Shown: positions 5,350-41,985 of the stretch, piece after piece | Layout of the letters: each line of letters starts with the position of its first letter | Numbering within the stretch: position 1 is the first letter of the stretch | Virus record (IMG/VR): IMGVR_UViG_3300029957_000006 | Coordinates: 60,455-124,454 of that record | Length of the DNA stretch: 64,000 nucleotides | Reading direction: 5' to 3' (one strand) | DNA from: a virus | Notes under the pieces: model-generated | Told to the model about the DNA's origin: nothing | Databases searched by the model: none | The model's input: only the letters and a program-made list of their open reading frames with translations | Made by a program: the position numbers and the translations under genes

Positions 5350-5407
5350 TTTAATATAGATTAGATTGCAAAGGTATGAATAATATTTGGAAGAACCAAA
5401 TTTAATC

Positions 5408-23175: not shown

Positions 23176-23176
23176 G

Positions 23177-23300: not shown

Positions 23301-23422
23301 AATTTAGTTGTGAGATTAATCCAGAATCACTGGTCACAACCACCATTTCCGCTGTAATGCACCCCAAGGTCTTATTCCAAAGACAAACACAAGTGTTCGG
23401 GCCAATACGGTTGAATTTCCAG

Positions 23423-23495
23423 TGGTAACGGCTAGAATCGAACTAGCGACACATAGATTTTCAGTCTATTGCTCTACCAACTGAGCTACATCACC
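23423..23495 (-). tRNA. tRNA-Phe(GAA)
   Basis: Cloverleaf; ataga-ctGAAaa-tctat. Confidence 0.9.
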
Positions 23496-23496
23496 A

Positions 23497-24400: not shown

Positions 24401-24418
24401 AAAATGTCAATGAACTAG

Positions 24419-24488
24419 TGGGGGATGATGGGTTCTAACCACCGACCTGTATTACTACTGCTCTAACCAAATTCTGAGCTAATCCCCC
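24419..24488 (-). ncRNA. Anticodon-less tRNA-like RNA
   Basis: 7-bp acceptor, D and T arms present; anticodon arm reduced to GTA-GTAA-TAC. Confidence 0.6.
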
Positions 24489-24806
24489 ATATTTACTTTG
24501 CAAAGTTACTAACTAAATTACGCTTTGTCAAGTATTATTTTTTAATATTTTTGAGGAACCAAATGCTCCTCTAACAGAGCACAAAGGTACAAAAGATTTT
24601 TGAATCTACCAAATTTATTTTTAATCCAAATAGATTTCAAAATAACTGATACAAAAATCATTAAACCAAACACCTCTATCGTAATAAAAAGCTAGAAGTT
24701 CTGGATCGGTGGCTTCTTCCACTCGTTTCACCATCTTATTGGCGATCTTTTGAAGGATTTTCTTTTTCATGAAACAAAGGTACTAAATAATTTTCGAATA
24801 AACAAA

Positions 24807-27128: not shown

Positions 27129-27858
27129 TTTAAATGGTATTTCACTATAAATATCACTTAAAAGGTTAAAATTACCAAGATTTTGAACCCAATTTCCGAT
27201 AAATTCTATTATTAAAATCATTTAATAATGATTCTGGTATGATTATACCGTTTTTTGAAAATTCTTCAAGAATTTCTCTTTTACTGAATGAACCTTCAAC
27301 AATTCCATCACTCCATTCATTTACCCAAAGACCCCAAGATTTTTTACCAATTATAACACTTCTAACTATGTTAGGGTGTCTGGTTTTAATAACGATATTG
27401 TCTTTGTAATTTCCATTGTCGTATTTTCTGAATACGTTTTTACCTTCAATTTCATTCACATCAAATTGAATTGGATTTATATCACTACCACAAAAAGTAA
27501 GAATACCTTTTCGATGTGATTGTATAAAGAAGATGAAGATTTGATTAAATCCTTGTGAGTATTTTTGAAGCTTTCTTTCATGCTTCGATCCTATTTGTAG
27601 CTTACGTAATTCTATACGTTGCTGCTTGGTGCGTCCAAGCTGTTGCCCCCTTGACTTATCATTTTAATAGAGTTAATTCTTTTCGTAATTCACTTATCTT
27701 TCTTTGTGTTCCAGCAACATCAATTTCCTTAGTAGTGGAAGTCTTTTTAGTTAGAGCTGAAATCATTTCATTTTCTAAATATTGGATTCTTTCTTGAAGC
27801 TTGGCTTTCTTTTTTTCTAACTTTCCCATTACTAGGTATTTTAATCATGTGTTATTTG

Positions 27859-27970
27859 CAGTGGTGCTAGGAATCGAACCTAGAATTCTGGCGTGAGAGG
27901 CTAGTTTAATTGCTGAACGTAATCTTAACAGATTAGCTTTTACATTGTGATACCATTTCACTACACCACT
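27859..27970 (-). tRNA. tRNA-Glu(CTC)-like with insertion of about 40 nt
   Basis: Acceptor AGTGGTG/CACCACT; D and T arms intact; insert lies between D and anticodon arms. Confidence 0.55.
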
Positions 27971-27973
27971 AGT

Positions 27974-28045
27974 TGAGAGAGCGAGTTTCGAACTCGACTT
28001 TTCCACCCGTCTAGGTGGCGTACTAACCAATTATACTATCTCCCA
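27974..28045 (-). tRNA. tRNA-like, anticodon ambiguous (6-nt loop TAGACG)
   Basis: Cloverleaf with CCACC/GGTGG stem. Confidence 0.45.
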
Positions 28046-28150
28046 ATTTTGCAGTCATAGTTGGATTCGAACCCAACCTAGAGGAAGAATCGAACTTCCA
28101 TCTCACTTAGTTCCTACTACCATTCGGAAACTTTTGTATTTGTTAATTTG

Positions 28151-28223
28151 CGGATGTGACGAGAGTTGAACTCGCTCCATACTGCGTGACAAGCAGACAT
28201 CTTAACCGTTTGACCTCACATCC
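28151..28223 (-). tRNA. tRNA-Asp(GTC)
   Basis: ctgc-ttGTCac-gcag. Confidence 0.8.
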
Positions 28224-28285
28224 ATTTTAATAACAAGAACCACTCATTGACTAGACGAGTGTTTGGTTGTCAACCATCCTTTTAG

Positions 28286-28360
28286 TGGAGCGTAAGGGAA
28301 TTGAACCCTGTTTTTCAGAATATCTTGCAAGGATATTTGGCTGCGCCTGTGCAACACCCC
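28286..28360 (-). tRNA. tRNA-Ala(TGC), atypical D-arm
   Basis: aatatc-ctTGCaa-gatatt; G3:U70 pair present. Confidence 0.65.
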
Positions 28361-28370
28361 ATTTTAATTT

Positions 28371-28449
28371 TGGCGGTTCTAGAGGGAGTTGAACCCTCAT
28401 TCTTCCTAGATCGACAATCTAGTTCCCAACCCAGTGGGCTCATAGAACC
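28371..28449 (-). tRNA. tRNA-Asp(GTC)
   Basis: ctaga-ttGTCga-tctag; encoded CCA. Confidence 0.75.
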
Positions 28450-28452
28450 AAG

Positions 28453-28526
28453 CGGAGAGTACGGGATTCGAACCCGTGGCCTTTTGCGTGACAGGCAAAT
28501 ATTGTAACCAGCTCTACTAACTCTCC
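28453..28526 (-). tRNA. tRNA-Asp(GTC)
   Basis: tttgc-ctGTCac-gcaaa. Confidence 0.85.
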
Positions 28527-28583
28527 ATTTAATCCGATTACGTTGATTTTTTACTGCTCGGATTGACACAACAAAAACACTTG

Positions 28584-28655
28584 TAAGATGTACGAGACTC
28601 GAACTCGTGTTTGCCCCTTCAACGGGGCTGTCCTAGGCCACTAGACGAACATCTC
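28584..28655 (-). tRNA. tRNA of Glu/Gln-type body with irregular anticodon loop (GTTGAA)
   Basis: Good acceptor, D and T arms; gcccc/ggggc stem. Confidence 0.5.
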
Positions 28656-28724
28656 TGACCACTAGAACATCTACAAATGCTTTTCATGGCCTCTACTTTG
28701 ATCATTGTAGTGATCTCCATATAG

Positions 28725-28809
28725 TACTGCGTATGGGATTCGAACCCATGATACTCTTACGAGTTCCACCTTGAAAGGATGGCGACCTAGACCGCTAGTC
28801 AAACGCAGC
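28725..28809 (-). tRNA. tRNA-Glu(TTC) with long variable arm
   Basis: ccatc-ctTTCaa-ggtgg; variable arm actc-gtaa-gagt. Confidence 0.75.
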
Positions 28810-29013
28810 ATTTTTAATTATTGCAAGTATTTCTCTTGGTGTTATTACTTCACACTTAGATTGTATCTCAACAATTCTTTTCTTTGGTATATCATAGTGA
28901 TCTTTATGAAACCAACATTTTTTTATTCCTAATTCCTTAGCCATTTCATGTAAGTTCTCGATTGAATACGGAACACATACTAGATGGCGTTTATTATCAC
29001 ATTTGTATTTCAT
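28795..29013 (-). CDS. Small DUF4031-like protein (start MKYKCD)
   Basis: HLV...LHEMA..LGIK..WFH..HYDI. Confidence 0.55.
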   Translation of the reverse strand: MKYKCDNKRHLVCVPYSIENLHEMAKELGIKKCWFHKDHYDIPKKRIVEIQSKCEVITPREILAIIKNAAFD

Positions 29014-29028
29014 AATTATAAATACTTG

Positions 29029-29100
29029 TACTCCCAAGGAGAATTGAACTCCTGTTTTTTGGTTGAAAACCAAACGAACTAACCACTATTCGATGGGAGC
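29029..29100 (-). tRNA. tRNA-Glu(TTC)
   Basis: tttgg-ttTTCaa-ccaaa. Confidence 0.85.
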
Positions 29101-29356
29101 ATTTAATAGTCTTTCCTATTAGTCTTTAAATGGGTTATGAATATATTCATTAGGAAATTCCTTGATAAATAACTTCCTCAATTTAGAATATCTTAAATTA
29201 CCTAATTCCTTTAGATTATATTGAGGTAAATTTTCTAATTCTTGTATCCAATGTATTCTAACAAGAAGTATATGAAATCTAATATGTCTACGTTTAACAA
29301 TCCATCTTGAATATTTCCATTTCAATAATATTAAAAATTTCTTCATAATTCTTTAG

Positions 29357-29998
29357 TTATTTTCTTCCTTTAATCCATCCTTGTTCTATAAACGAATTAA
29401 TATATTCTTTTTTTATTTTTTTATGTTCACCTTCTTTCGTAATCCAACAGGTATCATATTGAGAATTTTTATTTCCATTATGTTTACCTTTATGTGATTC
29501 AGACATCAATTCAATTGTTTCAATACTATGATTTTTCCCTGTCATGGTATCATACTTAATTTTACCATTTTTATGAGCAATTTTCACATTCTCCAACAAA
29601 GTTTTTTTTATTCTATTTCCAAATAATTTATCCTTTTTAAATCTTATAGCGAAATTTTTAGGACCATCTGATGTAATAAATTTATGTTTATGTTCTTCAT
29701 TAACAAATCCACCATCTCCACCTTCCTTCAAATTCATACATAAATCTTCACCAATCAACTCTTTTGTCACTAATTCCTTCTCTCTGTTTTTCAATAATTC
29801 TCTTGTTGGTAACCACTCAAGTATTTCCTTAGTATGATTCTTTTTACCATGATAGTTAATACTAAACCAAAGTCGTTTTCCACTACCAAAATAACCATCA
29901 TTCAAGTTATCTGTTGAGTGCATTCCTATGTAATATCTATTTGTTACATTACATGTAATTTTATAGATGTAATGATATTTTCTTTCTTGTCTTGCCAT
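29357..29998 (-). CDS. GIY-YIG (Seg-like) homing endonuclease within tRNA cluster
   Basis: YIYKIT...YYIGMHST...YFGSG, NLKEGGDGG. Confidence 0.8.
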   Translation of the reverse strand: MARQERKYHYIYKITCNVTNRYYIGMHSTDNLNDGYFGSGKRLWFSINYHGKKNHTKEILEWLPTRELLKNREKELVTKELIGEDLCMNLKEGGDGGFVNEEHKHKFITSDGPKNFAIRFKKDKLFGNRIKKTLLENVKIAHKNGKIKYDTMTGKNHSIETIELMSESHKGKHNGNKNSQYDTCWITKEGEHKKIKKEYINSFIEQGWIKGRK

Positions 29999-30034
29999 AT
30001 ACTAAATATACGGCAAGGTACAAAAAAGTCAAGG

Positions 30035-30107
30035 TCATCCCTACGGAATTTGAATCCGTGTTACCGCCTTGAAAGGGCAGTGTCCTAGACCACTAGACGA
30101 AAGGATG
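30035..30107 (-). tRNA. tRNA-Glu(TTC)
   Basis: ctgcc-ctTTCaa-ggcgg. Confidence 0.85.
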
Positions 30108-30112
30108 ATTAG

Positions 30113-30186
30113 TGGAACTTCCAGTTATCGAAGCTGGGACGCAGACCCTAACTGGGTCTCGCTCTACCATTCTGAGCTAAAGTTCC
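30113..30186 (-). tRNA. tRNA, possibly Asn(GTT), atypical loop
   Basis: agacc-caGTTag-ggtct; lacks U33. Confidence 0.5.
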
Positions 30187-30216
30187 TTAAATCCAATATG
30201 TCAAATAACGTTGTTG

Positions 30217-30289
30217 TGGACCTTCCCAGTTTCGAACTGGGCTCTCATGTTCTTCAGACATGCGCTTTCACCAGATTAGCTTAAAGTCC
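30217..30289 (-). tRNA. tRNA-Phe(GAA)
   Basis: catgt-ctGAAga-acatg. Confidence 0.85.
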
Positions 30290-30679
30290 ATTTATTTCTT
30301 TTTCAATTAAATCATTACTATGTCCATTGTTATACAAATCAATTATTATTTGTATCATTTCCTTTGTAATATGACCTCTTGATTGATTTTTCATGTTTTC
30401 TAGATGTGTTACCCATCTTAAATTTTCAATTCTATTATCATTTTTTACCCTATTAATATGATCAATAAATGGTTTATTATCTGGATTTTCAATAAACGCT
30501 TCACCTATCAATCTATGAAGAATACAAGTTTTTCGTTTTCCATTGAAGTACAAACCAACTATTTTATATCCTTTACTATCATTATGTATTTTAACTAATT
30601 TTCCTGTTTTAATGTTTTTAAGATTACCAAGAGTTGAAACCTCGTAATTACCTTCTTTTATTTTTTTCCATTTTTCCAT
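30281..30679 (-). CDS. NUMOD4-HNH homing endonuclease (start re-set to MEKWKKI)
   Basis: YEVSTLG, HRLIGEAF, IDHINRVKNDNRIENLRW. Confidence 0.8.
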   Translation of the reverse strand: MEKWKKIKEGNYEVSTLGNLKNIKTGKLVKIHNDSKGYKIVGLYFNGKRKTCILHRLIGEAFIENPDNKPFIDHINRVKNDNRIENLRWVTHLENMKNQSRGHITKEMIQIIIDLYNNGHSNDLIEKEINGL

Positions 30680-30691
30680 TGCAATATATGT

Positions 30692-30722
30692 AAAAAAAAA
30701 AGGTTGACTTCGGCCAACCTTT
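30692..30722 (-). terminator. Attenuator terminator of the Phe/Asp/Ala/Glu tRNA operon
   Basis: aaggttggc-cgaa-gtcaacctt followed by U-run. Confidence 0.8.
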
Positions 30723-30749
30723 CTTATCAAATTAATTATAACGTTTTCG

Positions 30750-30839
30750 TTAACTTTTGACAATAGTTGACCTTCCTTGGCTTTTATCGGCCTCGGCTGC
30801 AAAAAATGCAAAATCAAATATGTTGTTAACTGTTTTCAT
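30750..30839 (-). promoter_or_regulatory. Leader peptide MKTVNNIFDFAFFAAEADKSQGRSTIVKS
   Basis: 29-codon ORF between promoter (30903) and terminator; F/D/A/E run. Confidence 0.8.
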
Positions 30840-31250
30840 TGTTTTTAGTCTTGTGGGTTTCCCCTTGTCTTAATAAATATGTCGTTTCTTTTAAATGTTA
30901 CACAAAGGTACTAACTATTTTATTAAAAAGCAAGTCTTTTGGCAATTTTTTTTTAGTTAGAAGAATAAGTCTTGATCAAAGAAGTAAATTCTGTGTAAGT
31001 TTCTCTACTAACATTTTTGTTTTTGTAGTTAGCTTTAACTCTTGCTTTGATGTCAGAAACATAATTTCTTCCGAAGTTAGCTTTTCTTGAAGCTTCTGAT
31101 AATGAGATTTTTTGTTTAATGGCAGTCTTGATGATTTTGATACCATTTTTAACACTGGTTTCTGTTTTGGTGTTTGTCATAAATTTTGGTTTTTGTTTTT
31201 TGTTATATTGCAAATATACTAAATTATTTTATATCTAGCAAGCTTTTTAT

Positions 31251-32132
31251 TTAATTAGTCTTAACATAGAGTCTCAGCTTATCTTGATTCAAGAGTCCTT
31301 TCATACCATATCCTTCATCATAAGAAGCAAAGATATCTGAAAAATTATCAGCTGAGAATTTTCTAAACCATCCACCAGTTAAATTTGTTGAGACTCTTAC
31401 CAACGCATACTTGAAAGCATCTTTATGTGTAAAGGCTGGAATATTTGACTCTCCTTTAATAAGAGGATAAAGACATCTTTCCAAAGCAATTACATAACAC
31501 TCTTCAAGAACTTGTTTAATCTTGTCCTCATGAGATAGAGATTCAAAAAGAGACTTATGACATTCAACTGTTTCGTCAATCTTTGTTCTCAAATACATTG
31601 GTTTATCATAATGAGCCATTATCTCATGAATTGAGTCATGTTCATAATAATATTTAACCTTATCAGTGAAAAATACCGTACTATCTTTACCTTTTAATTT
31701 AGGTAAATGAAGTCGTTTAAGTTCAGCTTCGTTAAAGGATAGAATAAATTCTTCTCCCCAACTTTTTGATAGCTCAGTAAGTTCTGGTGTTAATTTAGTG
31801 ATCTTAAGTAGCTCTGAATAATCCATCAAGTGTTTAAATGATTTTCTAAACTTGCCTCGATAAATATACTTGTGACTATTCTTGATACTTAAAACAACAT
31901 CTAATGGTGCAACTACCTCAGAGGTAGTTGCATTACAATAGTTTAAATAACGTTCTCCAGTTGAATTGGGATGAGCGACAAATATATCAGTTCTTTTTCC
32001 ATCTTTTATAACTGAATAAAATCTATCAGTTGCCTCAACACCTGTTAATTTAGATGTTTCAAATGGAGTAGCGATGACATCTAAGTCTTCTGGCTCTCTT
32101 AACTTACTTGCTGTTGATCCTATTATTAGCAA
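31251..32132 (-). CDS. Phage hypothetical protein, nucleotidyltransferase-like N-terminus
   Basis: IIGS...DLDVI; HDSIHE motif. Confidence 0.45.
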   Translation of the reverse strand: MLIIGSTASKLREPEDLDVIATPFETSKLTGVEATDRFYSVIKDGKRTDIFVAHPNSTGERYLNYCNATTSEVVAPLDVVLSIKNSHKYIYRGKFRKSFKHLMDYSELLKITKLTPELTELSKSWGEEFILSFNEAELKRLHLPKLKGKDSTVFFTDKVKYYYEHDSIHEIMAHYDKPMYLRTKIDETVECHKSLFESLSHEDKIKQVLEECYVIALERCLYPLIKGESNIPAFTHKDAFKYALVRVSTNLTGGWFRKFSADNFSDIFASYDEGYGMKGLLNQDKLRLYVKTN

Positions 32133-32421
32133 TTTGAGTTTTCGTCAAAGTTAGCATATTCATCAGTCATTGCTTCGATGATACAAACTGATGCTTTTGT
32201 ATTCAAGTTTTCGAATTCACCATTAAGTGATTCAATTGCATTTTCTCCAGCACGTGCTGTCAATTCGCCATCTTGTACTTTTACAAGGATTTCATTTAAG
32301 CGAACATAGTATTTCTTTTGTTCTGCTTTCTTTTCTTCTGCTGTCATTTTCATTTTTGTGAATTTTAAGTGTTAATTTTTATTTTTACAAAACTACACCT
32401 AATTTTTGAAACCTACAAGTT

Positions 32422-32739
32422 TTATTTTTGATTATTTCTAAAATGTTCTTTAAGTTTCTTTTGTCCAAGTAATTCCAACAACACATCACCATGACAGGGT
32501 TCTGGTTTACAAAAACAACCAAGTACCTTTCCTTCAAGCTCATCTAATGCTTCCATTAATTCTGGACTAGCAAGGATGTGTTCTTTATACTTAGCAAGAG
32601 CTTCTTCTTTTGATCCAACTACTTCTTTAGCTAGTGTTGGCCGATCTTTAATTATTGTAAAAGGACAACCCCATTTACTACCTCTGCCAATATACACATC
32701 ATATGGATCATGTTTAAGATTTACCAGTTTAGTTACCAT
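32422..32739 (-). CDS. DUF4326 protein
   Basis: DVYIGRGSKWG.PF...LGCFCKP.PCHGDVL. Confidence 0.8.
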   Translation of the reverse strand: MVTKLVNLKHDPYDVYIGRGSKWGCPFTIIKDRPTLAKEVVGSKEEALAKYKEHILASPELMEALDELEGKVLGCFCKPEPCHGDVLLELLGQKKLKEHFRNNQK

Positions 32740-33509
32740 ACTTCAATTTCCAATATCCTTGTTTATTTAATCTGAAAAATGTTACATATTCCTTAGGTAC
32801 ATCAATGAATTCTTCTTTATAAATATCAGCATCATATAATTCAAATGCTTCAGTGCAATACACACTAACTGGTTTATCTGTAAATTTACTGATATCAGAC
32901 ATCTTAATCAAACCAACTTCAGTATAGTCAAGACCCCAAACGAAATAATAATCACATTGTGAATTCCTTTTCCTTATTGGAATATGAACAGTTGAGTAGA
33001 TATCTCGAATTTTTTTAAAATTACCCCGATATTCATTTTCAACACTTATTACTTCACCTTTATCATTCTTGAATATTAAATCATATTTTTTGAAGTGTTC
33101 TTTTTCAACATCACCTATTAATTCGTAGCCTCTATTTTTCATAAGTGATATAGCAGCTTTTTTTGCACTCATATCACACTGTCTATATATATGAATATCA
33201 AATTCTCTTTTTGCTTCACTCATATCAATTAAAAACGAATAATTTCTTTATCATATTAATTAACAGTAATGGTTATTCCTAATGACATACCTAACCATAG
33301 AAGACTTAAATTATATGACATTGGTCCAAAATGTCTAAATTCTTTTTTATGACCAAATCTACTAGGTATTAATGTTGGTATAAGTGCTAGTTCACTATTA
33401 TATTTAGTAAAAGATACTGAATATTTTTTTGTTAATGTTAATGTTGTTCTCATATTACAAATATACATAAAAAAAGCCGAACAATCAAGTTCAGCTTTTA
33501 GATAAAAAT

Positions 33510-33947
33510 TTAGGTAGTTTTCTTCTTTCTGAAAGTTGGAGTTTGGCTATGACAATTAGGGCAAAGAATTCTAAGGTTTTCTAATCTATTGTCATTACTA
33601 TCACCATTGATATGATCCAATTCAAGTGTCATTGGTTTACCATTCCACTCACCAGTATTACCACAACTTAAACATTTATTCTCTAATAATCCAGTAAATA
33701 TTAATCGTCTTTTTAGATGAGGTGAATCAAATGTTACTTTATTAGCTAAGATATCCTCCATCTTAACCTTACTCTTAAGTATTCCCTTACCAGACATATT
33801 CCCAACATAAATAATATCCATTTTTTTTAAGTAGATATTAAGTGTATCTTGTTTACATCCAAGTTCTTTTGATATGAAAGATTTAGGTTTATTTTCTGAA
33901 ATCCAAATTAAAATTTCGTCTTTTCGTTTAATTATATCTTTTCTCAT
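33510..33947 (-). CDS. HNH endonuclease
   Basis: LELDHINGDSNDNRLENLRILCPNCHSQT. Confidence 0.85.
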   Translation of the reverse strand: MRKDIIKRKDEILIWISENKPKSFISKELGCKQDTLNIYLKKMDIIYVGNMSGKGILKSKVKMEDILANKVTFDSPHLKRRLIFTGLLENKCLSCGNTGEWNGKPMTLELDHINGDSNDNRLENLRILCPNCHSQTPTFRKKKTT

Positions 33948-34003
33948 ATATTAAATATATGGTAGACATGTGAAAAGTACACAATACGTGTTAAAACATT
34001 TTG

Positions 34004-34077
34004 TAGCCCTCGTGAGATTCGAACTCACACTGGATGGCTTCTTAGACCATTGCCTCTACCAATTGGGCTAGAGGGCC
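34004..34077 (-). tRNA. tRNA-Leu(AAG), short variable arm
   Basis: atggt-ctAAGaa-gccat. Confidence 0.75.
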
Positions 34078-34164
34078 AAGTTCAAGATGGTTGTATGGAA
34101 TTGAACCACTGATTTATTTTTGAGATAAATTTTTAACCTGTTACTTTGCTGTAACCATCTTTTG

Positions 34165-34246
34165 TGAGAGTGGTGGGACTCGAACCCACAAGCCTTTCGG
34201 CCTCCGTTTCTAAGACGGAGCTGTATGCCAATTCCAGCACACTCCC
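34165..34246 (-). tRNA. tRNA-Leu(TAG)
   Basis: tccgt-ctTAGaa-acgga; long variable arm. Confidence 0.9.
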
Positions 34247-34403
34247 ATAAATACTAATAGCTGAATGTATCCCAGTTTACCATTGACTTACTTTGACCAA
34301 TCCCAATCTTAGTTGTTGTTGGTTTTAAGAGCTTGGACTTATTTCATTGCCAAGATAAACACGCAAATATTTCAATTTACGTAGTAAGCACTATTAATAT
34401 TTG

Positions 34404-34485
34404 TAGCCTAGAACGGACTCGAACCGTTACGTCTTGCGACACCAGATTTTGAGTCTGGCGTGTCTACCAATTTCACCACAAGGCC
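34404..34485 (-). tRNA. tRNA-Leu(CAA)
   Basis: ccaga-ctCAAaa-tctgg. Confidence 0.9.
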
Positions 34486-34500
34486 ATTGTGATCATGTTG

Positions 34501-34576
34501 TAGCCCAAGTGGGATTCGAACCCACAGTTGTACAGATTTTAAGTCTGTTGTGTCTAACCAGTTGCACCACTGGGCC
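34501..34576 (-). tRNA. tRNA-Leu(TAA), short variable arm
   Basis: acaga-ctTAAaa-tctgt. Confidence 0.8.
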
Positions 34577-34582
34577 ATCTAG

Positions 34583-34664
34583 TAGGGAAAAACGGACTCG
34601 AACCGTTACGCCTTACGGCAAGGGATTTTAAGTCCCTCGTGTCTACCAATTTCACCATATCCCC
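34583..34664 (-). tRNA. tRNA-Leu(TAA)
   Basis: aggga-ctTAAaa-tccct. Confidence 0.88.
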
Positions 34665-34680
34665 ATAAGAACATATGTTC

Positions 34681-34857
34681 TTATTCATTTTCTTTCCATT
34701 GAGAATTTCGATATCCTTTCCAAGAGAGGCTGTGATTATCTCTATTTCTATTACAACCTCTGTTAGGTGGACAAATCGGGCAACCCATGTTTTGTCTTAA
34801 AGCCTTGTTATACACTTGGCTATTCATTGTGTGTTTCAGTGTCTTTTTTTCTCTCAT
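34681..34857 (-). CDS. Small Cys-containing basic protein (58 aa)
   Basis: MREKKTLKH...MGCPICPPNRGCN...SWKGYRNSQWKENE. Confidence 0.5.
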   Translation of the reverse strand: MREKKTLKHTMNSQVYNKALRQNMGCPICPPNRGCNRNRDNHSLSWKGYRNSQWKENE

Positions 34858-35190
34858 GTTTCACTGTGCTTTATTATGCACTAGGTGAAACCATCCGCTT
34901 TTAAATTCATCATTATACTTTTTCTTCTTTAATGGTTGATGACTTGCAACATTCAAATAATTTAGCTAATTCTGGTTTAATTTTACCTTTCAATCCATTT
35001 AAAAGACCAGAATCTTCCCAAGCTTTTGTGACTTTTTTGATCTTATCTTCTTCTATTTTTTTCTTAAGATCACTTAAACAAGCTGAGTGAGCAAAGTGTG
35101 TTTTATCAACAACAATTGCCATGCAACTAATTGGTTTTTCGCAGTATGAGCATGTAAAGTAAATCATGTTATTTTGTATTAAATTTTTAG

Positions 35191-35261
35191 TAGCCCCTGA
35201 CGGAATCGAACCATCTACGCTTGCATGTAAGGCAAGTACACATCCATTGTGAATAAGGGCC
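35191..35261 (-). tRNA. tRNA-Val(TAC)
   Basis: cttgc-ctTACat-gcaag. Confidence 0.8.
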
Positions 35262-35266
35262 ATTTG

Positions 35267-35339
35267 TTGGACTTGAGAATTTTGAAATCTCGACTTCTAC
35301 CATGTCATAGTAGCACTCTAGCCTCTGAGTTAAAGTCCA
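35267..35339 (-). tRNA. tRNA-Val(GAC)
   Basis: ctact-atGACat-ggtag. Confidence 0.75.
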
Positions 35340-35351
35340 ATTTTTGAGTAG

Positions 35352-35479
35352 AGCAAAAGGTAGGGATCGAACCTACATTACAGTCAACCAGACATCCTGA
35401 TGAGAACCATCAGGTAGAGGATTGATGACTATTCCTCCGTTTAAAAAGCTAGCGTGTATACCACTTTCACCACCTCTGC
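35352..35479 (-). ncRNA. tRNA-like RNA with large structured central insertion
   Basis: Acceptor GCAGAGG/CTTTTGC, Leu-type D-arm, T-arm GTAGGTTCGATCCCTAC; centre contains cctgatg/catcagg hairpin. Confidence 0.55.
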
Positions 35480-35503
35480 ACTACTCAATATTTTAAAGAA
35501 CTG

Positions 35504-35578
35504 TGGGAATGACAGGGTTCGAACCTGTGACCCTCTGCTTGTAAGGCAGATGCTCTGAACCAGCTGAGCTACACTCCC
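35504..35578 (-). tRNA. tRNA-Val(TAC)
   Basis: tctgc-ctTACaa-gcaga. Confidence 0.92.
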
Positions 35579-36437
35579 ATGATAGGATTAACCTACCTTT
35601 ATAAATTCACCAGCATCAATCGCTTTTTGAATCCATCTGATTAATTCTGATCCTTTTACTTCGGCACCAAATGGTGTTGATCCTAAATCAGAAGAAAGCT
35701 TATCGAATTTAATTTCTTCAAAATCATCCATTCCATCAACAGGTTCTTTTATTTTTGTAACTAATTTTCCTTCAAATTTATAATGAAAATTAGTAGCATC
35801 ATAAATACCAGATGTTACAACATCATCCAATTTAACTTTATCAAGTGTTGAAATAGGGAACTGAAATTTACCTTCATTAATTTCAACAGTATAATATAAA
35901 TTACCAGATTGGTAATGGCTAAATACTGCAAAGTTTTTTGACTTGTATAAGTCTTTTTTTATTTCATTCTTGTCAACCATCTTAAACAATTTTTTCTTTT
36001 GTATATTTTTTTTGCTCTGATTTTTATTTCTTTTTCTTTTAAAGCATTTTCAAATAATATTGCTTCAATTTCTTTTTTCACTTGATTAGGCATATCCGTT
36101 TTCTCGTTTCCATTTTTCATGCATTTGATGAATGGTATCACCCACACTTGCACCTTGTCCTTCGACTATATTATCAAATCCATTTTCTTTTGTGATCATG
36201 GATTCTTCTGCTTTGATGGCACCTTTGAATTTCATTCCATAAGCACCTTCCATTTGTTTGGTTGCTGGATTTACATCACCCCAACCAACTCTCCAATTTC
36301 TTGGTTCAATATATTCAACGAAATATCTTTTACCAGTTTCTGGATAAAAATAAATCTCTCGTCCTGTTTCATCCCTATCAATAAGGAAATCTTTTTTAAT
36401 GTCTGTCATAAAACTATTTTTACTCTTTGTTATTTTG

Positions 36438-36508
36438 AGTTCCCAACTGGATTCGAACCAATGTAGGAGGATTTGCAATCCTCAGCCTAGCCACTCGACC
36501 ATGGAAAC
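36438..36508 (-). tRNA. tRNA-Cys(GCA)
   Basis: gagga-ttGCAaa-tcctc. Confidence 0.88.
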
Positions 36509-36524
36509 TTATTTTCATTACTTG

Positions 36525-36599
36525 AGCACATGATAGGATTCGAACCTATGGTTGTACAGTTTTGCAGACTGCTGCTTTGGACCACTCAGCCACATGTGC
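36525..36599 (-). tRNA. tRNA-Cys(GCA)
   Basis: gcagt-ctGCAaa-actgt. Confidence 0.88.
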
Positions 36600-36602
36600 A
36601 TT

Positions 36603-36633
36603 AAAAAAGCCCACCTTGTTGGAGATGGGCTTT
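36603..36633 (-). terminator. Attenuator terminator of the Cys/Val/Leu tRNA operon
   Basis: aaagcccatct-ccaaca-aggtgggcttt followed by U-run, immediately before tRNA-Cys. Confidence 0.8.
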
Positions 36634-36652
36634 CATGTTTAAGTATCATAAC

Positions 36653-36727
36653 TTAACAAGCATAGCCCATCCTGTCTAGCACTAGACATAACAATAAAAG
36701 GACTGATGTGTTGTTAATGTTTTTCAT
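36653..36727 (-). promoter_or_regulatory. Leader peptide MKNINNTSVLLLLCLVLDRMGYAC
   Basis: 24-codon ORF between promoter (36772) and terminator; V/L/C run. Confidence 0.82.
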
Positions 36728-36843
36728 TTTGTTTTTCTTATCGAATTTCTTCGTTGTTTAATAAATATAAGCAAAGGTACTAAAAGTTTTGGTAATTGTC
36801 AAGTTTTTTGTTGTTTATTTTGATATTTATGATAAAATAAGTC

Positions 36844-37413
36844 ATGATCAAAGAACTTCTTAGGAAATATTTATTGGAATATGCTATTACTGAGGCTGAA
36901 CCCACTGGTCATTTTGGTGATAGAGTTAACGAAGTTATTAACAATATAGTGTCAATTCAAATTCCTCCTACTGCTTATTTACCCAATATTCCTAAAGAAA
37001 AACAAGACGCTTGGATTATAAGTCAGATACAAACACAACTTAGAAATAAAATTAATGCTGTAAAAGAAAAACAATACCCAGAAGGTAATTCTGGAATTTG
37101 TGTCTTGGTTCCTTTAGGTCTTATAAAAATACAACCAATGAATGGTGTTGCATCAAATATTATAGTAACAGCAAAAAGAACAGAAGGATTAATGAGTGGA
37201 TTTAATTATTATATAGCAATTTATGATAATCGTATGCCATCTATCGTATTAGCTGACCCTAAGAATCCAAATAATTCATCGCCTGGTAATCAATTGTTAG
37301 CTCATATGAATAACAATATTAAAAGAGGGGATAATGTTAATAAAGCTAAATCTTTCGTTGATAAAAGCTTTATGAATAATATTGTTGTTAATATGAGAGA
37401 CTTTAAAGCTTAA
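36844..37413 (+). CDS. Hypothetical protein, putative late/virion class
   Basis: GATATTTAT upstream; N-terminus ...YLLE. Confidence 0.5.
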   Translation: MIKELLRKYLLEYAITEAEPTGHFGDRVNEVINNIVSIQIPPTAYLPNIPKEKQDAWIISQIQTQLRNKINAVKEKQYPEGNSGICVLVPLGLIKIQPMNGVASNIIVTAKRTEGLMSGFNYYIAIYDNRMPSIVLADPKNPNNSSPGNQLLAHMNNNIKRGDNVNKAKSFVDKSFMNNIVVNMRDFKA

Positions 37414-37781
37414 TACTTATAAGCCCAATCATCATTCCAATAATCATCATTCCCAACAAATTCAATATAAACACGTATATTATTCTTATGCTTCTTAACA
37501 GTAAATTGTTTAACTTCTCCTGTGTTAGCTTTTACGATTTGTTCAGCTTCATCAAGATTAAGTGTAGTTAAATTTCCATTATAAAACGTGATAATGGCAT
37601 CAACTGGCTCATTTGTCTTGTTATTGATAATACTATTAACCTTAAACGAGCTAACACCATATTTAGCTACCAAAGCTAAAAAAAGACCAGTTAAATTTAC
37701 GTTTTTCATAGTATTATTTTTGATTACGAAGCAAAGGTAGGTAAATATTTCAATATTTCCAAATATTTATATGTGAATCTT

Positions 37782-38540
37782 ATGAAAATTCTAGAAATCT
37801 ATAAAAATCTACTAATTGAAGCTGAAGTCGAAGCTTGTGTCAAAAAATTTGGTCATGAACTATTCGGACATGAATTAGGTGGAACTGAGGCTAATACAGG
37901 TATTGAAAATTCATATGTTAGGGATATTTCAGACTTTACAGATAATAAATATGGTGAAGAGATAACACCAGAATTTGTACGTGCTGTTAGAACACTAAGT
38001 AGTTGTATGAAACAATATCCAGAAGTGCTTATTCCAGAAAAAACAAAGGTTTATAGAGGTTTAACCATTCCAGTTAAATATTTCATAGAAAAAGGTCAAC
38101 CAATTGACATTAAAACTCCATTTCCATACACTTATAAAGCAAAAAATCAAATTCAAAGCTGGACCAATGATTTTGATGCTGCATCTACATTTGGCAATCA
38201 TGACACCTTGAATGAAGTTGCTAGGAATATCAATTTTAATGATTATAATTCACCACAAGCAAGAAAAGAGTTATTACATGATATGATTAATGAAGAATTA
38301 AGAATGGCTTTTGTTTTAGAATATACAACCAATTCAAAAGAATTTATCTTCAAATCTAAATATTTTAAAATGTTATCAATGGCCCATCATGAAAATGAAC
38401 TTATTAGAATAGATAATAAACCAATCAAGGTAATTGCTAAGTTCAATGATCATTCTGATGTATTTTTAACTGGTAAGGGTCTCACTTTACTTAAGTATAT
38501 CAATCAAGCAATACTAGAATCAAAAAGCTTGACTAAATAA
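37782..38540 (+). CDS. Putative ADP-ribosyltransferase-fold protein
   Basis: VYRG, QSWT...A..F and ENE resemble the R-S-E ART motifs. Confidence 0.55.
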   Translation: MKILEIYKNLLIEAEVEACVKKFGHELFGHELGGTEANTGIENSYVRDISDFTDNKYGEEITPEFVRAVRTLSSCMKQYPEVLIPEKTKVYRGLTIPVKYFIEKGQPIDIKTPFPYTYKAKNQIQSWTNDFDAASTFGNHDTLNEVARNINFNDYNSPQARKELLHDMINEELRMAFVLEYTTNSKEFIFKSKYFKMLSMAHHENELIRIDNKPIKVIAKFNDHSDVFLTGKGLTLLKYINQAILESKSLTK

Positions 38541-39606: not shown

Positions 39607-40620
39607 TTAAGGTTTTAAATATAACTCAAAATCTTTATATATGTCTTCAATACTATGATTTATAATATAATCATCATAAGTTTCATCTTTAAAAATACTA
39701 TCAATTGTTTTTTTGAACCCAGACATTGCATCACCAAGTTCTTTACCTTTTAGATCATATTTACGCATTACATCACCACCATTGAACTTAGCTTTTATAT
39801 ACAACTTCTTACACTCTTCATATTCAAGTCGTCTAATTTCAGTCATTACTCTTGCTTCTGGAAAATGTTCATCAATAACATCAATATAAGCATCTTTGTT
39901 ATCCAAATAAGTATCCTTAAAAATATATTTATGATCATCATCTGCAACGTTATGATCCATCCATTCAAGAAATGACATATATGATTTTCGTTTCAAATTT
40001 CTATCTCTATTGATCTTGTTCAATTTATCCAATTGAAACATTTCCCAATTGAAATAAGGACTCGTTGCTATATATACAAATATATCTTCCAATTCATCAA
40101 AACCAGCTTCCCATCTTTCATAAGATAATCCAAGAAATTTAAAAATTTCTTTATAATTCTTTGATATTGGAATACGACCAATATTCATACCCTTATAATA
40201 GTGTTCATACCAAAGACCTTCTTGACCATATTTTAACCCAAAACCTTGTGCTATTCTGCCAATAAAGTTTCCAAGATCATTATATGATAAATACATTTCA
40301 TTGGAATCGAAGTGTTCTTGTGCAAGTGTTATAAGATCAATTTGCAATTCCTTATAATCAAAAGAATAACAATTCCCATTGTGAAAAATTTCGATTGGAT
40401 TGAAGGTTTCAACTATATAATCTCTAACATTACGATCAAAACCTTCCATTGATACAATTAAATCAGCATCACCAAATGATTTCTTATTGCTATAAAATAA
40501 TGGCATTGCAACACGCTTAAAGTCTTTCCTTAATGTATCAATAAGTTCCTTGCTGATAATATCAAATTCAGCTCGTTCATATCTACGTGTATGTGCTTTT
40601 TTAAGTGCTAATCCACCCAT
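39607..40620 (-). CDS. Pol-beta-like nucleotidyltransferase-fold phage protein
   Basis: K.SFGDADL, QIDLI motifs. Confidence 0.5.
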   Translation of the reverse strand: MGGLALKKAHTRRYERAEFDIISKELIDTLRKDFKRVAMPLFYSNKKSFGDADLIVSMEGFDRNVRDYIVETFNPIEIFHNGNCYSFDYKELQIDLITLAQEHFDSNEMYLSYNDLGNFIGRIAQGFGLKYGQEGLWYEHYYKGMNIGRIPISKNYKEIFKFLGLSYERWEAGFDELEDIFVYIATSPYFNWEMFQLDKLNKINRDRNLKRKSYMSFLEWMDHNVADDDHKYIFKDTYLDNKDAYIDVIDEHFPEARVMTEIRRLEYEECKKLYIKAKFNGGDVMRKYDLKGKELGDAMSGFKKTIDSIFKDETYDDYIINHSIEDIYKDFELYLKP

Positions 40621-41985
40621 ATTTTTATAATACTTTAATTTCTGTTATACTATCAAATGTTTTGGATGCTCCATTTGTGAATTTTATCAAATAGGTTTTC
40701 CAATCCTGAGTTTCACCCCACCAGTCATTTTCAGCTGTATCTGGAGTGATTTGTCTTGAATGGTGTTGTGGGATGACTTCTTTGATTTCAAGTTCTACCT
40801 CAACCTTCAAATCAGTCATAATTTTCATCTTTTTACCAACTAATAATTGTAATACATCCATGATTTTATTTATTTACCATTTCAAATCTTGAAGGATGAC
40901 ACCAATGAATTGTTTCACCATTAGGTAATTGTTCTTTAGTTTCCCAGCTTCTAACATAATTTAATTCTGACACAAGACCAACATCTAAGTGTTGATTGCC
41001 TTGACTATCCAGAATTATTTGTTTAATTGTATAAATCTTATCCAATTCAAGTGCTGGTGCTTTATCATTTCCAGCTAGTGGAGCGATATTAATCGCTTTA
41101 ACTTCTGTTCCTTCTTCAAAAATTATTTTCATATTTGTTTTATCTTCTGTTTCGTAATGTGCTTTAAATCGTTTGTTATCTTCATCAGATACATCATTAC
41201 CTTCCCAATCAAGAATTCCTAACATTTTATCAATATCCCATTGTTGTTGCATTGGTAATTTAAAAAAGTTCTTAGGACGTAAGAACGATAACTCAAACAT
41301 TTCTTTTTCAGTCTTCATTTATTCTTATTTTTAAAATTTATTCTAATTAAATGTATTTTTTCTTTAAACCAAATAAATAATAATTTTTGTTGAAACCAAT
41401 TTAACTTTTTACCGTTTTTCCACGTTTTAGCTGATTCATTAAAAAATGACTTATCTAGCATTGGATATTTTTCAAGAATTTCTGAGGCTCTTTGATTAAA
41501 GATAGGTGTTTTTTCAATCCAATCTCTATCCATCTTGTAATTCTTATCTGCTGGTATACTACCCCAAATAAGTTCACAAACAAAACGCATTTGTTTATCA
41601 GTTAACTTTTCCATTATTTAGCTGGTGTGAAAACAAAGTATTCATCAAAATTCTGATCTCTATCAGGTGATTGATAATTAACATGCCATCCATTCTTTCT
41701 AAAAATAGGTTCAAAATCCATCCAGTTATTATCAAATAATTTATCTCTTGTGATTGTATTATCCAATTTGATTATTTCAGATACAATGGCTTTTTGTGTT
41801 ATAGATATGGACTTACCAACAAATTCTTTTTTTAAAAGATTATTTACTGCTTCAATAACAACACTAGGAATAACATTTTCAATGTTATCTTTTAAATCTG
41901 TTGGACTAAGTGGTTTTACATTTTCCATGTTTATTGGCTTAGGTACAAACAAAGGTACTGATAATAAATGATATATGCAAGTTAA

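What the first reader, a model, noticed from the sequence alone, without database searches (positions are those of the whole stretch)
36603..36779. Phage tRNA operon apparently controlled by a leader peptide that samples exactly the codons its tRNAs read
Seen: promoter TACCTTTG (36772-36779), then ORF 36727-36653 whose control run is GTC CTT TTA TTG TTA TGT CTA GTG CTA (VLLLLCLVL), then GATGGGCT, stop, and a terminator aaagcccatct..aggtgggcttt-Un right before tRNA-Cys. GATGGGCT is perfectly complementary to the terminator 5' arm AGCCCATC (antiterminator). Downstream anticodons are Cys GCA x2, Val TAC x2, Val GAC, Leu TAA x2, CAA, TAG and AAG, so every control codon has a cognate tRNA and every anticodon has a control codon. 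Known: ribosome-mediated attenuation regulates amino-acid biosynthesis operons; I know of no description for phage tRNA arrays. Inference: an on-demand tRNA replacement circuit sensing starvation or defence-driven tRNA destruction.
Basis: partly seen in the sequence, partly recalled or inferred. Interest (0 to 1): 0.95.

Follow-up and report, generated by a model that had tools for sequence, protein, structure and literature searches.

The report
Leader-peptide switches controlling phage tRNA genes
A large phage places a tiny test gene, written in the amino acids that the following tRNA genes carry, plus a switchable transcription stop in front of each tRNA block, so it probably makes its own tRNAs only when ribosomes run short of them.

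Summary

- **Module 1:** window 36782-36603 (- strand) holds a promoter-like box, a 24-codon ORF with a nine-codon Val/Leu/Cys run, and a strong terminator 4 nt before tRNA-Cys.
- **Module 2:** 30913-30692 has a Phe/Asp/Ala/Glu/Asn run before Phe, Asn, Glu, Asp and Ala tRNAs.
- **Relatives:** related contigs gave 30 distinct leaders of four types: L/V/C; F/D/A/E(N); T/Y/Q/G/K/P; N/I/H/S/M/W/R. Two contigs carry all four types. In one of them the four tRNA blocks cover all 20 amino acids.
- **Match:** 167 of 179 downstream tRNAs belong to their leader type's amino-acid set.
- **RNA switch:** in the three types counted (1, 2, 4), a segment just after the run can pair with the terminator's 5' arm (89-95% of cells). 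Covariation for that pairing is weak.
- **Codon level:** the match is no better than the amino-acid choice predicts (7/7, P=0.13).

Best reading: trp/ilv-type ribosome-mediated attenuation applied to tRNA genes. My searches found no published account. Earlier notes of this scan report the same design on other DNA.

The parts
36797..36802 (-). upstream promoter element (TTGACA) of module 1
   Evidence: read; lies 17 nt upstream of the 8-nt box; a TTG at the same distance is found at the other strong boxes
36772..36782 (-). promoter-like 11-nt word containing the TAnnTTTG-type box (36779-36772)
   Evidence: 15 matches in the window against 1.04 expected, all on the - strand; conserved in front of all homologous leaders
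36742..36753 (-). 5'-UTR hairpin with a four-base GAAA loop
   Evidence: paired in the minimum-energy fold; most relatives have a G/C-stem hairpin with a GNRA-type loop at the same place
36653..36727 (-). leader ORF 1, 24 codons plus stop
   Evidence: 9 distinct homologues of 24-25 codons with conserved start and stop, gap of three bases
36677..36703 (-). control run: nine codons for Val, Leu x4, Cys, Leu, Val, Leu
   Evidence: unique among 985 short ORFs of the record; composition kept but order shuffled in relatives
36700..36704 (-). region 1 (pairs with region 2 when no ribosome covers it)
   Evidence: paired in the fold; the five core pairs are kept in 78-100% of 9 sequences
36664..36672 (-). 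region 2: antiterminator strand inside the ORF, a near-copy of the terminator 3' arm
   Evidence: 9-nt complement of the terminator 5' arm; 95.1% of 81 cells paired in 9 sequences against 21-59% in slid controls; duplex -15.0 kcal/mol against -6.4 for shuffles, p=0.007
36603..36633 (-). intrinsic terminator (11-bp stem, 6-nt loop, T-run) ending 4 nt before tRNA-Cys
   Evidence: 93.9% of cells paired, 3 pairs with compensatory changes, 1-3 of 500 shuffles as good
34003..36599 (-). regulated block: tRNA-Cys x2, two ORFs, tRNA-Val x3 plus one odd tRNA-like gene, two ORFs, tRNA-Leu x5
   Evidence: ARAGORN and Rfam; no TAnnTTTG box with an upstream TTG inside it
33472..33499 (-). terminator-like hairpin that probably ends transcription unit 1, after an HNH endonuclease ORF (33947-33513)
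   Evidence: 11 pairs plus T-run; HNH family match; a new promoter-like box follows at 33465
30903..30913 (-). promoter-like word of module 2
   Evidence: exact match, TTG at 30933-30931
30855..30864 (-). 5'-UTR hairpin of module 2 (G/C stem, GAAA loop)
   Evidence: used as the search word that found the four leader types
30750..30839 (-). leader ORF 2, 29 codons plus stop, run of Asn/Phe/Asp/Ala/Glu codons at 30827-30786
   Evidence: only short ORF of the record with an A/D/E/F/N run of 7 or more (11)
30765..30772 (-). region 2 of module 2
   Evidence: duplex with the terminator 5' arm -12.1 kcal/mol, p=0.023; 89.3% of 56 cells paired in 8 sequences, 19 of 500 shuffles as good
30692..30722 (-). 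terminator of module 2
   Evidence: 93.8% of cells paired, 5 pairs and 13 cells with compensatory changes, 0 of 500 shuffles as good
27972..30679 (-). block behind module 2: HNH_3/NUMOD4 endonuclease ORF (30679-30284), tRNA-Phe, Asn, Glu, two ORFs, Glu x2, odd tRNA, Asp x2, Ala, Asp, odd tRNA

Best explanation
The element is a ribosome-mediated (leader-peptide) transcription attenuator placed in front of a phage tRNA operon.

Proposed sequence of events:
1. Host RNA polymerase starts at the promoter-like box and transcribes a 5' hairpin and a 24-codon ORF.
2. If ribosomes read the Val/Leu/Cys run quickly and reach the end of the ORF, they cover region 2 (36672-36664). In the longer leader types, region 1 instead re-pairs with region 2 behind the ribosome.
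3. The terminator (36633-36603) then forms and transcription stops 4 nt before tRNA-Cys.
4. If the ribosome stalls in the run because charged Val, Leu or Cys tRNA is scarce, it covers region 1 and leaves region 2 free.
5. Region 2 then pairs with the terminator's 5' arm as it emerges, and the polymerase reads through into the Cys, Val and Leu tRNA genes.

Because the product is the limiting tRNA itself, the circuit is a negative-feedback supply control. A second module (30913-30692) does the same for Phe/Asn/Glu/Asp/Ala. In fuller relatives four such modules together cover all 20 amino acids.

Shown here: the parts, their conservation, the leader-to-tRNA match, and the pairing potential.
Inferred: translation of the ORF, stalling, the switch itself, and its trigger.
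For: 1. Anatomy at the stated coordinates is confirmed.

2. A second module in the same window has a different run matched to different tRNAs. Each leader is the single outlier among 985 short ORFs of the record.

3. An automatic scan for promoter word, then a 15-50-codon ORF, then a hairpin with T-run, was run over 10 sources. It returned 17 modules, all of the four leader types, and nothing else except nested frames of the same leaders.

4. There are 30 distinct leaders: 9, 8, 5 and 8 of types 1 to 4. 26 of the 30 have at least one tRNA downstream in the sequence held. 167 of the 179 tRNAs belong to the leader type's amino-acid set.

5. In contig G001 the four blocks cover all 20 amino acids. 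Its leader 4 names 7 of 7 amino acids of its block.

6. 264 of 616 leader codons are decodable by the leader's own block, against 119 expected. 112 of 121 anticodons have a codon in their leader.

7. Within a type the composition of the run is kept while the order changes. Of the four gap sites inside the ORFs, three are of three bases or multiples; the type 2 alignment also holds a single-base gap in two rows.

8. Terminators covary: type 1 has 3 compensatory pairs, type 2 has 5 pairs and 13 cells with 0 of 500 shuffles as good.

9. The antiterminator pairing is kept in 95.1%, 89.3% and 90.5% of cells in types 1, 2 and 4, against 9-59% in slid controls.

10. In 21 of 30 leaders the duplex is stronger than shuffles at p<=0.05. 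In 28 of 30 the partner lies at codons 15-26, just after the run; two type 2 leaders pair from codon 17, inside the run.

11. Folding of the nascent RNA with a ribosome mask: region 2 is paired in 30 of 30 leaders when no ribosome is present. It is free mostly when the A site is in the N-terminal part and the run, and masked or re-paired once the ribosome is past it, apart from the leaders listed under evidence against.

12. No promoter-like box with an upstream TTG lies between the terminator and the end of the Leu tRNAs in the window.
Against: - No RNA, ribosome or reporter data exist, and no RNA run holds the sequence.
- Covariation for the antiterminator is weak. Shuffle controls reach the observed pairing in 172 of 500 (type 1) and 132 of 500 (type 4) trials, because these columns hardly vary. 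Only type 2 is modestly better (19 of 500).
- The synonymous-codon match is not beyond expectation.
- In the window's own leader 1 the simulation frees region 2 at only 3 of the 9 run codons. In one relative (L070) it frees it at none. In three leaders (L072, L078, G003 type 2) the free state also appears at late codons or at the stop, and in one type 3 leader it appears from codon 2.
- With the 3' arm absent, the minimum-energy fold forms the antiterminator even without a ribosome in 27 of 30 leaders at 3 or more arm bases (24 of 30 at 5 or more; the window's leader 1: 8 of 8), so default termination rests on a kinetic argument.
- Exceptions to the match: a tRNA-His in block 3 of G001 without a His codon in its leader; tRNA-Gln in block 4 of G004; tRNA-Ser(cga) in block 2 of two contigs; one type 1 leader followed only by Val, Phe, Val.
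- One contig keeps leader 3 but has lost the tRNA array behind it.
- One relative has a full promoter word directly before its Leu tRNAs, inside the block.
- All 30 leaders come from related phages, so they count as about four independent matches, not 30.
Confidence: 0.8

Rival explanations
1. The leaders are translated and matched to the tRNAs, but they act through something other than a terminator/antiterminator choice. Possibilities are translation-dependent stability or processing of the pre-tRNA transcript, Rho-type polarity, or a pause signal. On this reading the hairpin is a constitutive partial terminator or a processing site.
For: Covariation for the antiterminator is weak in types 1 and 4. 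The simulation is patchy for the window's leader 1. The terminator ends only 4 nt before the tRNA, where RNase P must cut.
Against: Region 2 is a near-copy of the terminator 3' arm in all four types and always sits just after the run. When a relative (L076) has a different terminator, it also has a different matching region 2. Pairing potential is 89-95% against 9-59% in slid controls.
Confidence: 0.1
2. The polarity is reversed. Efficient translation of the leader promotes read-through, so phage tRNAs are made only while translation works well (a feed-forward design, as in the pyrBI leader).
For: In leader types 2 to 4 a ribosome at the stop codon does not cover region 2. In the truncated-transcript fold the antiterminator then forms.
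Against: The ORFs stop 20-33 nt before the terminator arm, so a ribosome cannot melt the terminator. In the nascent-RNA folds region 2 is masked or re-paired when the ribosome is at the stop in 29 of 30 leaders (free in G003 type 2), which leaves the terminator free to form. The full-length minimum-energy folds show the terminator hairpin in 15 of 17 leaders.
Confidence: 0.05
3. The ORF encodes a small functional peptide, for example a hydrophobic membrane peptide, with its own terminator. The tRNA genes merely lie downstream.
For: The window's leader 1 taken alone looks like a short hydrophobic peptide. The peptide sequence is fairly conserved within each type.
Against: Types 2 to 4 are polar or charged, and each is built from the amino acids of its own tRNA block. 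The hydrophobic run has only 9-11 residues. The order of residues changes while the composition is kept. The conserved C-terminal codons coincide with the RNA pairing segments.
Confidence: 0.03
4. The ORF is a chance reading frame in a plain 5' leader, and the match to the tRNAs is coincidence.
For: The synonymous-level match is not significant.
Against: Each leader is the single outlier among 985 short ORFs. Four independent matched types exist. The frame is conserved in 30 distinct sequences.
Confidence: 0.02

Closest known systems
Multivalent leader-peptide attenuators of enterobacterial amino-acid operons (ilvGMEDA: Ile/Leu/Val; thr: Thr/Ile). Recalled from textbook knowledge, not from a call.
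   Same: A short ORF with a run of codons for several amino acids, a terminator, a mutually exclusive antiterminator whose 5' strand lies just after the run, and a protector pairing within the ORF.
   Different: The regulated genes here are tRNA genes, not biosynthetic enzymes. The owner is a phage. Up to seven amino acids are sampled in one leader, and four leaders partition the whole code. There is no sequence relation: the best Rfam leader hit scores 28.8 bits against a threshold of 55.
trp operon attenuator (trpL). Recalled.
   Same: A four-region logic in which region 1 resembles region 3 and region 2 resembles region 4. In leader type 1 a ribosome at the stop codon covers region 2.
   Different: It senses several amino acids rather than one, the output is tRNA, and the setting is probably a Bacteroidota-type host without a Shine-Dalgarno signal in front of the ORF (inference from promoter type).
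pheST (pheM leader) attenuation and T-box riboswitches, which tie synthesis of the translation apparatus to tRNA charging. Recalled.
   Same: Expression of a component of the decoding machinery responds to the supply of charged tRNA.
   Different: Those systems control aminoacyl-tRNA synthetases. T-boxes bind uncharged tRNA directly and need no ribosome. No T-box match turned up in the Rfam scan of 20000-38000.
Long tRNA gene array of Anabaena, silent unless translation is impaired (PMC8421152; I saw the search listing, the abstract and a term search of the main text).
   Same: A spare tRNA array that is switched on under translational stress.
   Different: It is a bacterial chromosome array. 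The paper's main text holds 0 occurrences of words beginning with leader, attenuat or terminator, so no leader-peptide mechanism is described there.

Membership tests
Leader-peptide (ribosome-mediated) transcription attenuators | Promoter-proximal short ORF with a run of regulatory codons | tested here: met
   ORF 36727-36653 with a nine-codon run. It is unique among 985 short ORFs, and 30 conserved homologues exist.
Leader-peptide (ribosome-mediated) transcription attenuators | Intrinsic terminator between the leader ORF and the regulated genes | tested here: met
   Terminator at 36633-36603. Covariation in types 1 and 2.
Leader-peptide (ribosome-mediated) transcription attenuators | Antiterminator mutually exclusive with the terminator, placed so that ribosome position decides which one forms | tested here: met
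   Pairing potential is 89-95% in three types. The position just after the run holds in 28 of 30 leaders. The ribosome-mask folds agree. The evidence is computational only, and covariation is weak.
Leader-peptide (ribosome-mediated) transcription attenuators | Protector (1:2) pairing that gives termination when the leader is not translated | tested here: inconclusive
   Region 2 is paired in 30 of 30 nascent-RNA folds without a ribosome. The core pairs are kept. Once the 5' arm is present, however, the antiterminator is the minimum-energy fold in 27 of 30 leaders at 3 or more arm bases.
Leader-peptide (ribosome-mediated) transcription attenuators | Regulated genes make or charge the amino acid named by the run | tested here: not met
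   The genes behind the terminator are tRNA genes plus small ORFs and homing endonucleases. This difference is what makes it a new variant.
Leader-peptide (ribosome-mediated) transcription attenuators | Read-through rises when the cognate charged tRNA is scarce | not testable with these tools
   No RNA holder was listed. This needs a reporter assay or Term-seq.
Rfam leader families (e.g. Phe_leader RF01859) | Score at or above the family's gathering threshold | tested here: not met
   28.8 bits against 55 at 36601-36719. Only sub-threshold hits at module 2.
T-box riboswitch | Match to the T-box model (specifier loop and T-box sequence) | tested here: not met
   No T-box hit with E up to 1 in 20000-38000.

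The most novel reading that the evidence does not exclude
This phage lineage runs a complete, four-channel decoding homeostat. All 20 amino acids are divided among four tRNA operons. Each operon is gated by a leader peptide that samples exactly that operon's amino acids. A shortage of any one tRNA class, whether from host shut-off, codon-usage mismatch or host anticodon nucleases, is sensed by the ribosome itself and answered by transcription of the replacement tRNAs. On this reading the attenuators are a general, self-contained counter-measure to tRNA-targeting defence, and the first case of tRNA genes regulated by translation of a leader peptide.
Probability: 0.35. Interest if true: 0.95.

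Novelty: new variant of a known kind. Interest (0 to 1): 0.88.

Why it matters
How phages regulate the many tRNA genes they carry, and why they carry them, are open questions. A leader-peptide switch would make tRNA genes the output of a mechanism so far known for amino-acid and synthetase genes. The ribosome would act as a sensor of the phage's own decoding capacity, which gives a direct and testable link between phage tRNA arrays and tRNA depletion by host shut-off or anticodon nucleases.

The four-leader partition of the genetic code is a compact natural design. It could be reused as a set of codon-class-specific translation-speed reporters.

The modules also give annotation pipelines a simple signature for tRNA transcription units in large uncultured phages: a promoter, a short ORF whose composition mirrors the tRNAs, and a terminator.

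Tried and rejected
**RNA evidence.** No RNA holder was listed for window 30600-36800. All 24 runs are DNA.

**Close relatives among deposited phages.** A DNA search of 34000-37500 found only tRNA-sized matches. A protein search with the 804-aa ORF found one record, LR756511.1, at 44% coverage and 51.4% identity.
- That 595-kb phage has 60 tRNA hits, but its arrays mix amino acids.
- One short ORF before a strong terminator has 29 of 35 residues in the set of the array behind it. That set covers about three quarters of an average protein, so I reject it as evidence.

**First pattern searches.** Two-arm and region-2 patterns gave mostly unrelated hits. 3 of 15 and 4 of 18 loci were true homologues.

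**Protein search.** The search with the divergent 189-aa neighbour found one relative.

**Family searches.** PHROGs and Pfam searches of the ORFs between the tRNAs gave nothing except homing endonucleases.

**Synonymous-codon test.** It gave no signal beyond amino-acid choice.

**Rest of the record.** A look for type 3 and type 4 leaders in the rest of this 124-kb record found none. The record is about 35% complete.

**phiCbK lead from earlier notes (partly followed).**
- The record has three annotated terminators directly before tRNA blocks.
- The short ORFs before two of them have 23 of 45 and 14 of 44 residues in the block's set.
- The ORFs before the third have 2 of 30 and 4 of 52.
- I ran no statistics and no structure test on these.

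**Literature.** Searches found no description of leader-peptide control of tRNA genes. I saw only search listings and abstract starts, plus a term search in PMC8421152. Supplements were not seen. About 1.7 million PMC articles are outside the searched library.
Full report
**What is there**

The window is the last 64 kb of a 124,454-b virus record estimated at 35% complete. ARAGORN finds 22 tRNA genes, all on the - strand between 21197 and 36599 and sorted by amino acid. Rfam adds two more tRNA-like genes.

- a TTGACA at 36802-36797;
- an 8-nt box of the TAnnTTTG kind at 36779-36772 (the consensus is recalled as the Bacteroidota housekeeping promoter type);
- a small hairpin with a GAAA loop at 36753-36742;
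- an ATG at 36727 opening a 24-codon ORF that ends at 36653;
- an 11-bp hairpin with a T-run at 36633-36603.

The nine codons at 36703-36677 encode only Val, Leu and Cys. The segment 36672-36664 inside the ORF is a 9-nt complement (one G-U pair) of the terminator's 5' arm and a near-copy of its 3' arm. The leader folds better than shuffles (z = -3.1).

The 11-nt word holding the box occurs 15 times in the window, always on the - strand, against 1.04 expected. In 10 of these 15 cases an ORF of 49 codons or more starts 13-32 nt after it. Only two cases have a long 5' UTR followed by a mini-ORF and a terminator: this one and a second at 30913.

**The second module**

At 30913-30692 the same promoter word is followed by:
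- a G/C hairpin with a GAAA loop;
- a 29-codon ORF (30839-30750) whose run is made of Asn, Phe, Asp, Ala and Glu (plus one Ile);
- a terminator (30722-30692).

Behind it lie a homing-endonuclease ORF (HNH_3 plus NUMOD4) and then tRNA-Phe, Asn, Glu x3, Asp x3 and Ala.

Among 985 short ATG ORFs (15-50 codons, six frames) of the whole record, leader 1 is the only one with a Cys/Leu/Val run of 7 or more (run 9, next best 6). Leader 2 is the only one with an Ala/Asp/Glu/Phe/Asn run of 7 or more (run 11, next best 6).

**Relatives**

Pattern searches built from the leader and from the promoter-plus-hairpin module were run in viral contigs and metagenome contigs. I also fetched five longer records. 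Together these gave 30 distinct leader sequences, falling into four types by the composition of the run:

| Type | Run composition | Distinct leaders |
|---|---|---|
| 1 | L/V/C | 9 |
| 2 | F/D/A/E, often N | 8 |
| 3 | T/Y/Q/G/K/P | 5 |
| 4 | N/I/H/S/M/W/R | 8 |

An automatic scan (promoter word, first 15-50-codon ORF, hairpin plus T-run) over ten sources returned 17 modules. All were of these four types, and nothing else appeared except nested frames of the same leaders.

Two contigs carry all four types. In G001 (232,931 b) the four tRNA blocks contain C,L,V / A,D,E,F / G,H,K,P,Q,T,Y / H,I,M,N,R,S,W, which is all 20 amino acids. Its leader 4 names 7 of 7 amino acids of its block.

Over all 30 leaders, 26 have at least one tRNA downstream in the sequence held, and 167 of the 179 tRNAs belong to the type's set. 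The four leaders without a downstream tRNA are:
- two with only 256 and 537 nt held;
- one with 2,556 nt held;
- one (G003, type 3) where comparison with a close relative shows the 2.3-kb tRNA array replaced by 0.9 kb of other sequence.

The twelve tRNAs outside the set include four of undetermined identity, a His in block 3 of G001, a Gln in block 4 of G004, Ser(cga) in block 2 of two contigs, and a Phe in a short block behind one type 1 leader.

Because these phages are related, I count this as four independent matches maintained over divergence, not 30.

**Is the ORF a reading frame?**

- Start, stop and length are conserved within types: 24-25, 25-30, 30-39 and 32-33 codons.
- Of the four gap sites inside the ORFs in the alignments, three are of three bases or multiples of three. 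The type 2 alignment also has one single-base gap in two rows.
- Within a type the residues of the run change order while staying inside the set. This is clearest in types 1 and 3.
- This pattern fits selection on which codons are read, not on a folded peptide.

At the codon level, 112 of 121 distinct anticodons have a cognate codon in their own leader. 264 of 616 leader codons are decodable by the leader's own block, against 119 for random ORFs. When the peptide is held fixed and synonymous codons are redrawn from the phage's usage, the coverage is not exceptional. For the window's leader 1 it is 7 of 7 against a mean of 5.59, P = 0.13.

It carries no information beyond the amino-acid match.

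**RNA switch**

Terminators are supported by covariation:
- Type 1: 93.9% of 99 cells paired, 3 compensatory pairs, 1-3 of 500 shuffles as good.
- Type 2: 93.8% of 80 cells paired, 5 pairs and 13 cells compensatory, 0 of 500 shuffles as good.

The proposed antiterminator (region 2 with the 5' arm):
- Paired in 95.1% of 81 cells (type 1), 89.3% of 56 (type 2) and 90.5% of 63 (type 4). Slid controls give 9-59%.
- These columns hardly vary, so the shuffle controls are not exceeded in types 1 and 4 (172 and 132 of 500). They are only modestly exceeded in type 2 (19 of 500).
- Individual cases are suggestive. In G001 a synonymous change in region 2 matches a change in both terminator arms. One type 2 relative (L076) has a different terminator and a correspondingly different region 2.

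Sequence by sequence, the best partner of the 5' arm in the upstream RNA lies at codons 15-26, just after the run, in 28 of 30 leaders. In two type 2 leaders (L072, L078) it starts at codon 17, inside the run. The duplex beats shuffles at p<=0.05 in 21 of 30: 9 of 9 in type 1, 2 of 8 in type 2, 4 of 5 in type 3 and 6 of 8 in type 4.

A protector pairing exists. In type 1, five bases at the start of the run pair with region 2, kept in 78-100% of sequences. In type 4, an invariant six-base segment inside the run pairs with region 2 in 97.9% of cells.

**Position logic**

I folded the nascent RNA up to the terminator arm with a ribosome mask (18 nt behind to 12 nt ahead of the A-site codon). Results:
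- Region 2 is paired in 30 of 30 leaders without a ribosome.
- It is free mostly when the A site is in the N-terminal part and the run.
- It is masked, or in most of the longer leaders re-paired, once the ribosome has passed it.
- Exceptions: in three leaders (L072, L078, G003 type 2) it is also free at late codons or at the stop; in one type 3 leader (L034) it is free from codon 2.

This is the classical attenuation logic.

Weak points:
- For the window's leader 1 only 3 of the 9 run codons give the free state, and one relative gives none.
- Once the 5' arm is present but the 3' arm is not, the antiterminator is the minimum-energy fold even without a ribosome in 27 of 30 leaders at 3 or more arm bases, 24 of 30 at 5 or more. 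Default termination therefore depends on the order of folding.

**Extent of the unit**

Between the leader terminator and the last Leu tRNA there is one TAnnTTTG match, and it has no upstream TTG. After the Leu tRNAs come an HNH ORF and a terminator-like hairpin at 33499-33472, followed by a new promoter-like box.

Unit 1 therefore probably runs from about 36770 to 33472. It contains the Cys, Val and Leu tRNAs, four small ORFs of no known family and a homing endonuclease.

One relative (L016) has a full promoter word directly in front of an interrupted tRNA-Leu(taa) inside the block. Control by the leader is therefore not exclusive everywhere.

**What it is and what is new**

It works like the multivalent leader-peptide attenuators of amino-acid operons. 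It is not related to them in sequence: the best Rfam leader hit scores 28.8 bits against a threshold of 55, and there is no T-box hit. It differs in the defining point that the regulated genes are tRNA genes.

Seven full-text searches found no description of such control. The nearest paper, on a stress-induced tRNA array of Anabaena, does not mention leaders, attenuation or terminators in its main text.

Earlier notes of this scan report the same design on other DNA, including phiCbK-like Caulobacter phages. I checked phiCbK only in part. Terminators do sit before its tRNA blocks, and two of the three upstream ORFs are enriched in the block's amino acids. The match is less clean than here, and I did no statistics on it.

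**Verdict**

The mechanism is inferred from anatomy, conservation and folding, with confidence 0.8. The proposed triggers (starvation, host shut-off, anticodon nucleases) are untested.

Noticed in passing
window 30679-30284, 33947-33513, 29998-29360; L002 about 450-70; L016 8560-9340: Homing endonuclease ORFs sit inside the tRNA operons. They are HNH_3 plus NUMOD4, HNH, and a weak NUMOD3 match. In the window's module 2 and in L002 one lies between the attenuator terminator and the first tRNA. In L016 a tRNA-Leu(taa) is split by about 750 nt that carries an HNH-type ORF; it may be a group I intron, which I did not verify.
   Followed up: partly
window 35479-35352, 28655-28583, 28045-27972: Three odd tRNA-like genes. 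The first is 128 nt long and scores 29.1 bits against Rfam tRNA; ARAGORN's intron mode calls it Ile(gat) with a 50-nt insert. The other two have anticodon loops of abnormal size. The last of them has a counterpart with a four-base anticodon call in G001, behind tRNA-Ala.
   Followed up: partly
window 24592-23495: Two promoter words (24592, 24511) are followed at once by a tRNA-like sequence that neither ARAGORN nor Rfam calls. About 0.9 kb without a long ORF then follows, up to tRNA-Phe (23495-23422). This is unexplained.
   Followed up: no
G003 5295-5370 and G004 5408-5481 (loci L058, L061): These relatives carry a tRNA with anticodon CTA, labelled Pyl by ARAGORN, next to Met tRNAs and behind a promoter word. 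It is a candidate amber suppressor, which hints at stop-codon recoding in this phage group. None is present in the window.
   Followed up: no
G003 40483-41600 (locus L060) against L083: This is an orphan leader. The type 3 leader and its terminator are kept at 92.6% identity, but the 2.3-kb tRNA array behind them is replaced by 0.9 kb with small ORFs.
   Followed up: yes
window 36753-36742 and 30864-30855; the same place in relatives: A 5'-UTR hairpin with a GNRA-type loop lies between promoter and leader ORF. Its stem differs (A/U-rich in module 1, G/C in most others) while the loop type is kept. Its role is unknown; it could be a stabiliser or a pause site.
   Followed up: partly
G001 about 211590-211480 (locus L049): In G001 a 36-codon, very basic ORF lies between the promoter and leader 4. 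The leader is therefore the second ORF of that transcript.
   Followed up: no
LR756511.1 230001-295000 and 432001-440000 (loci L091-L093): This 595-kb uncultured phage is the only relative in the phage collection. It has 60 tRNA hits in mixed arrays. Ser, Leu and Tyr tRNAs sit in a separate cluster. A 35-codon ORF with no Leu lies before a strong terminator ahead of the main array. This is suggestive but not significant.
   Followed up: partly
window 36844-37413 (+ strand): This is a divergent 189-aa ORF of no known family next to module 1. It is 60% identical in one relative (L002), where it also lies next to leader 1.
   Followed up: partly
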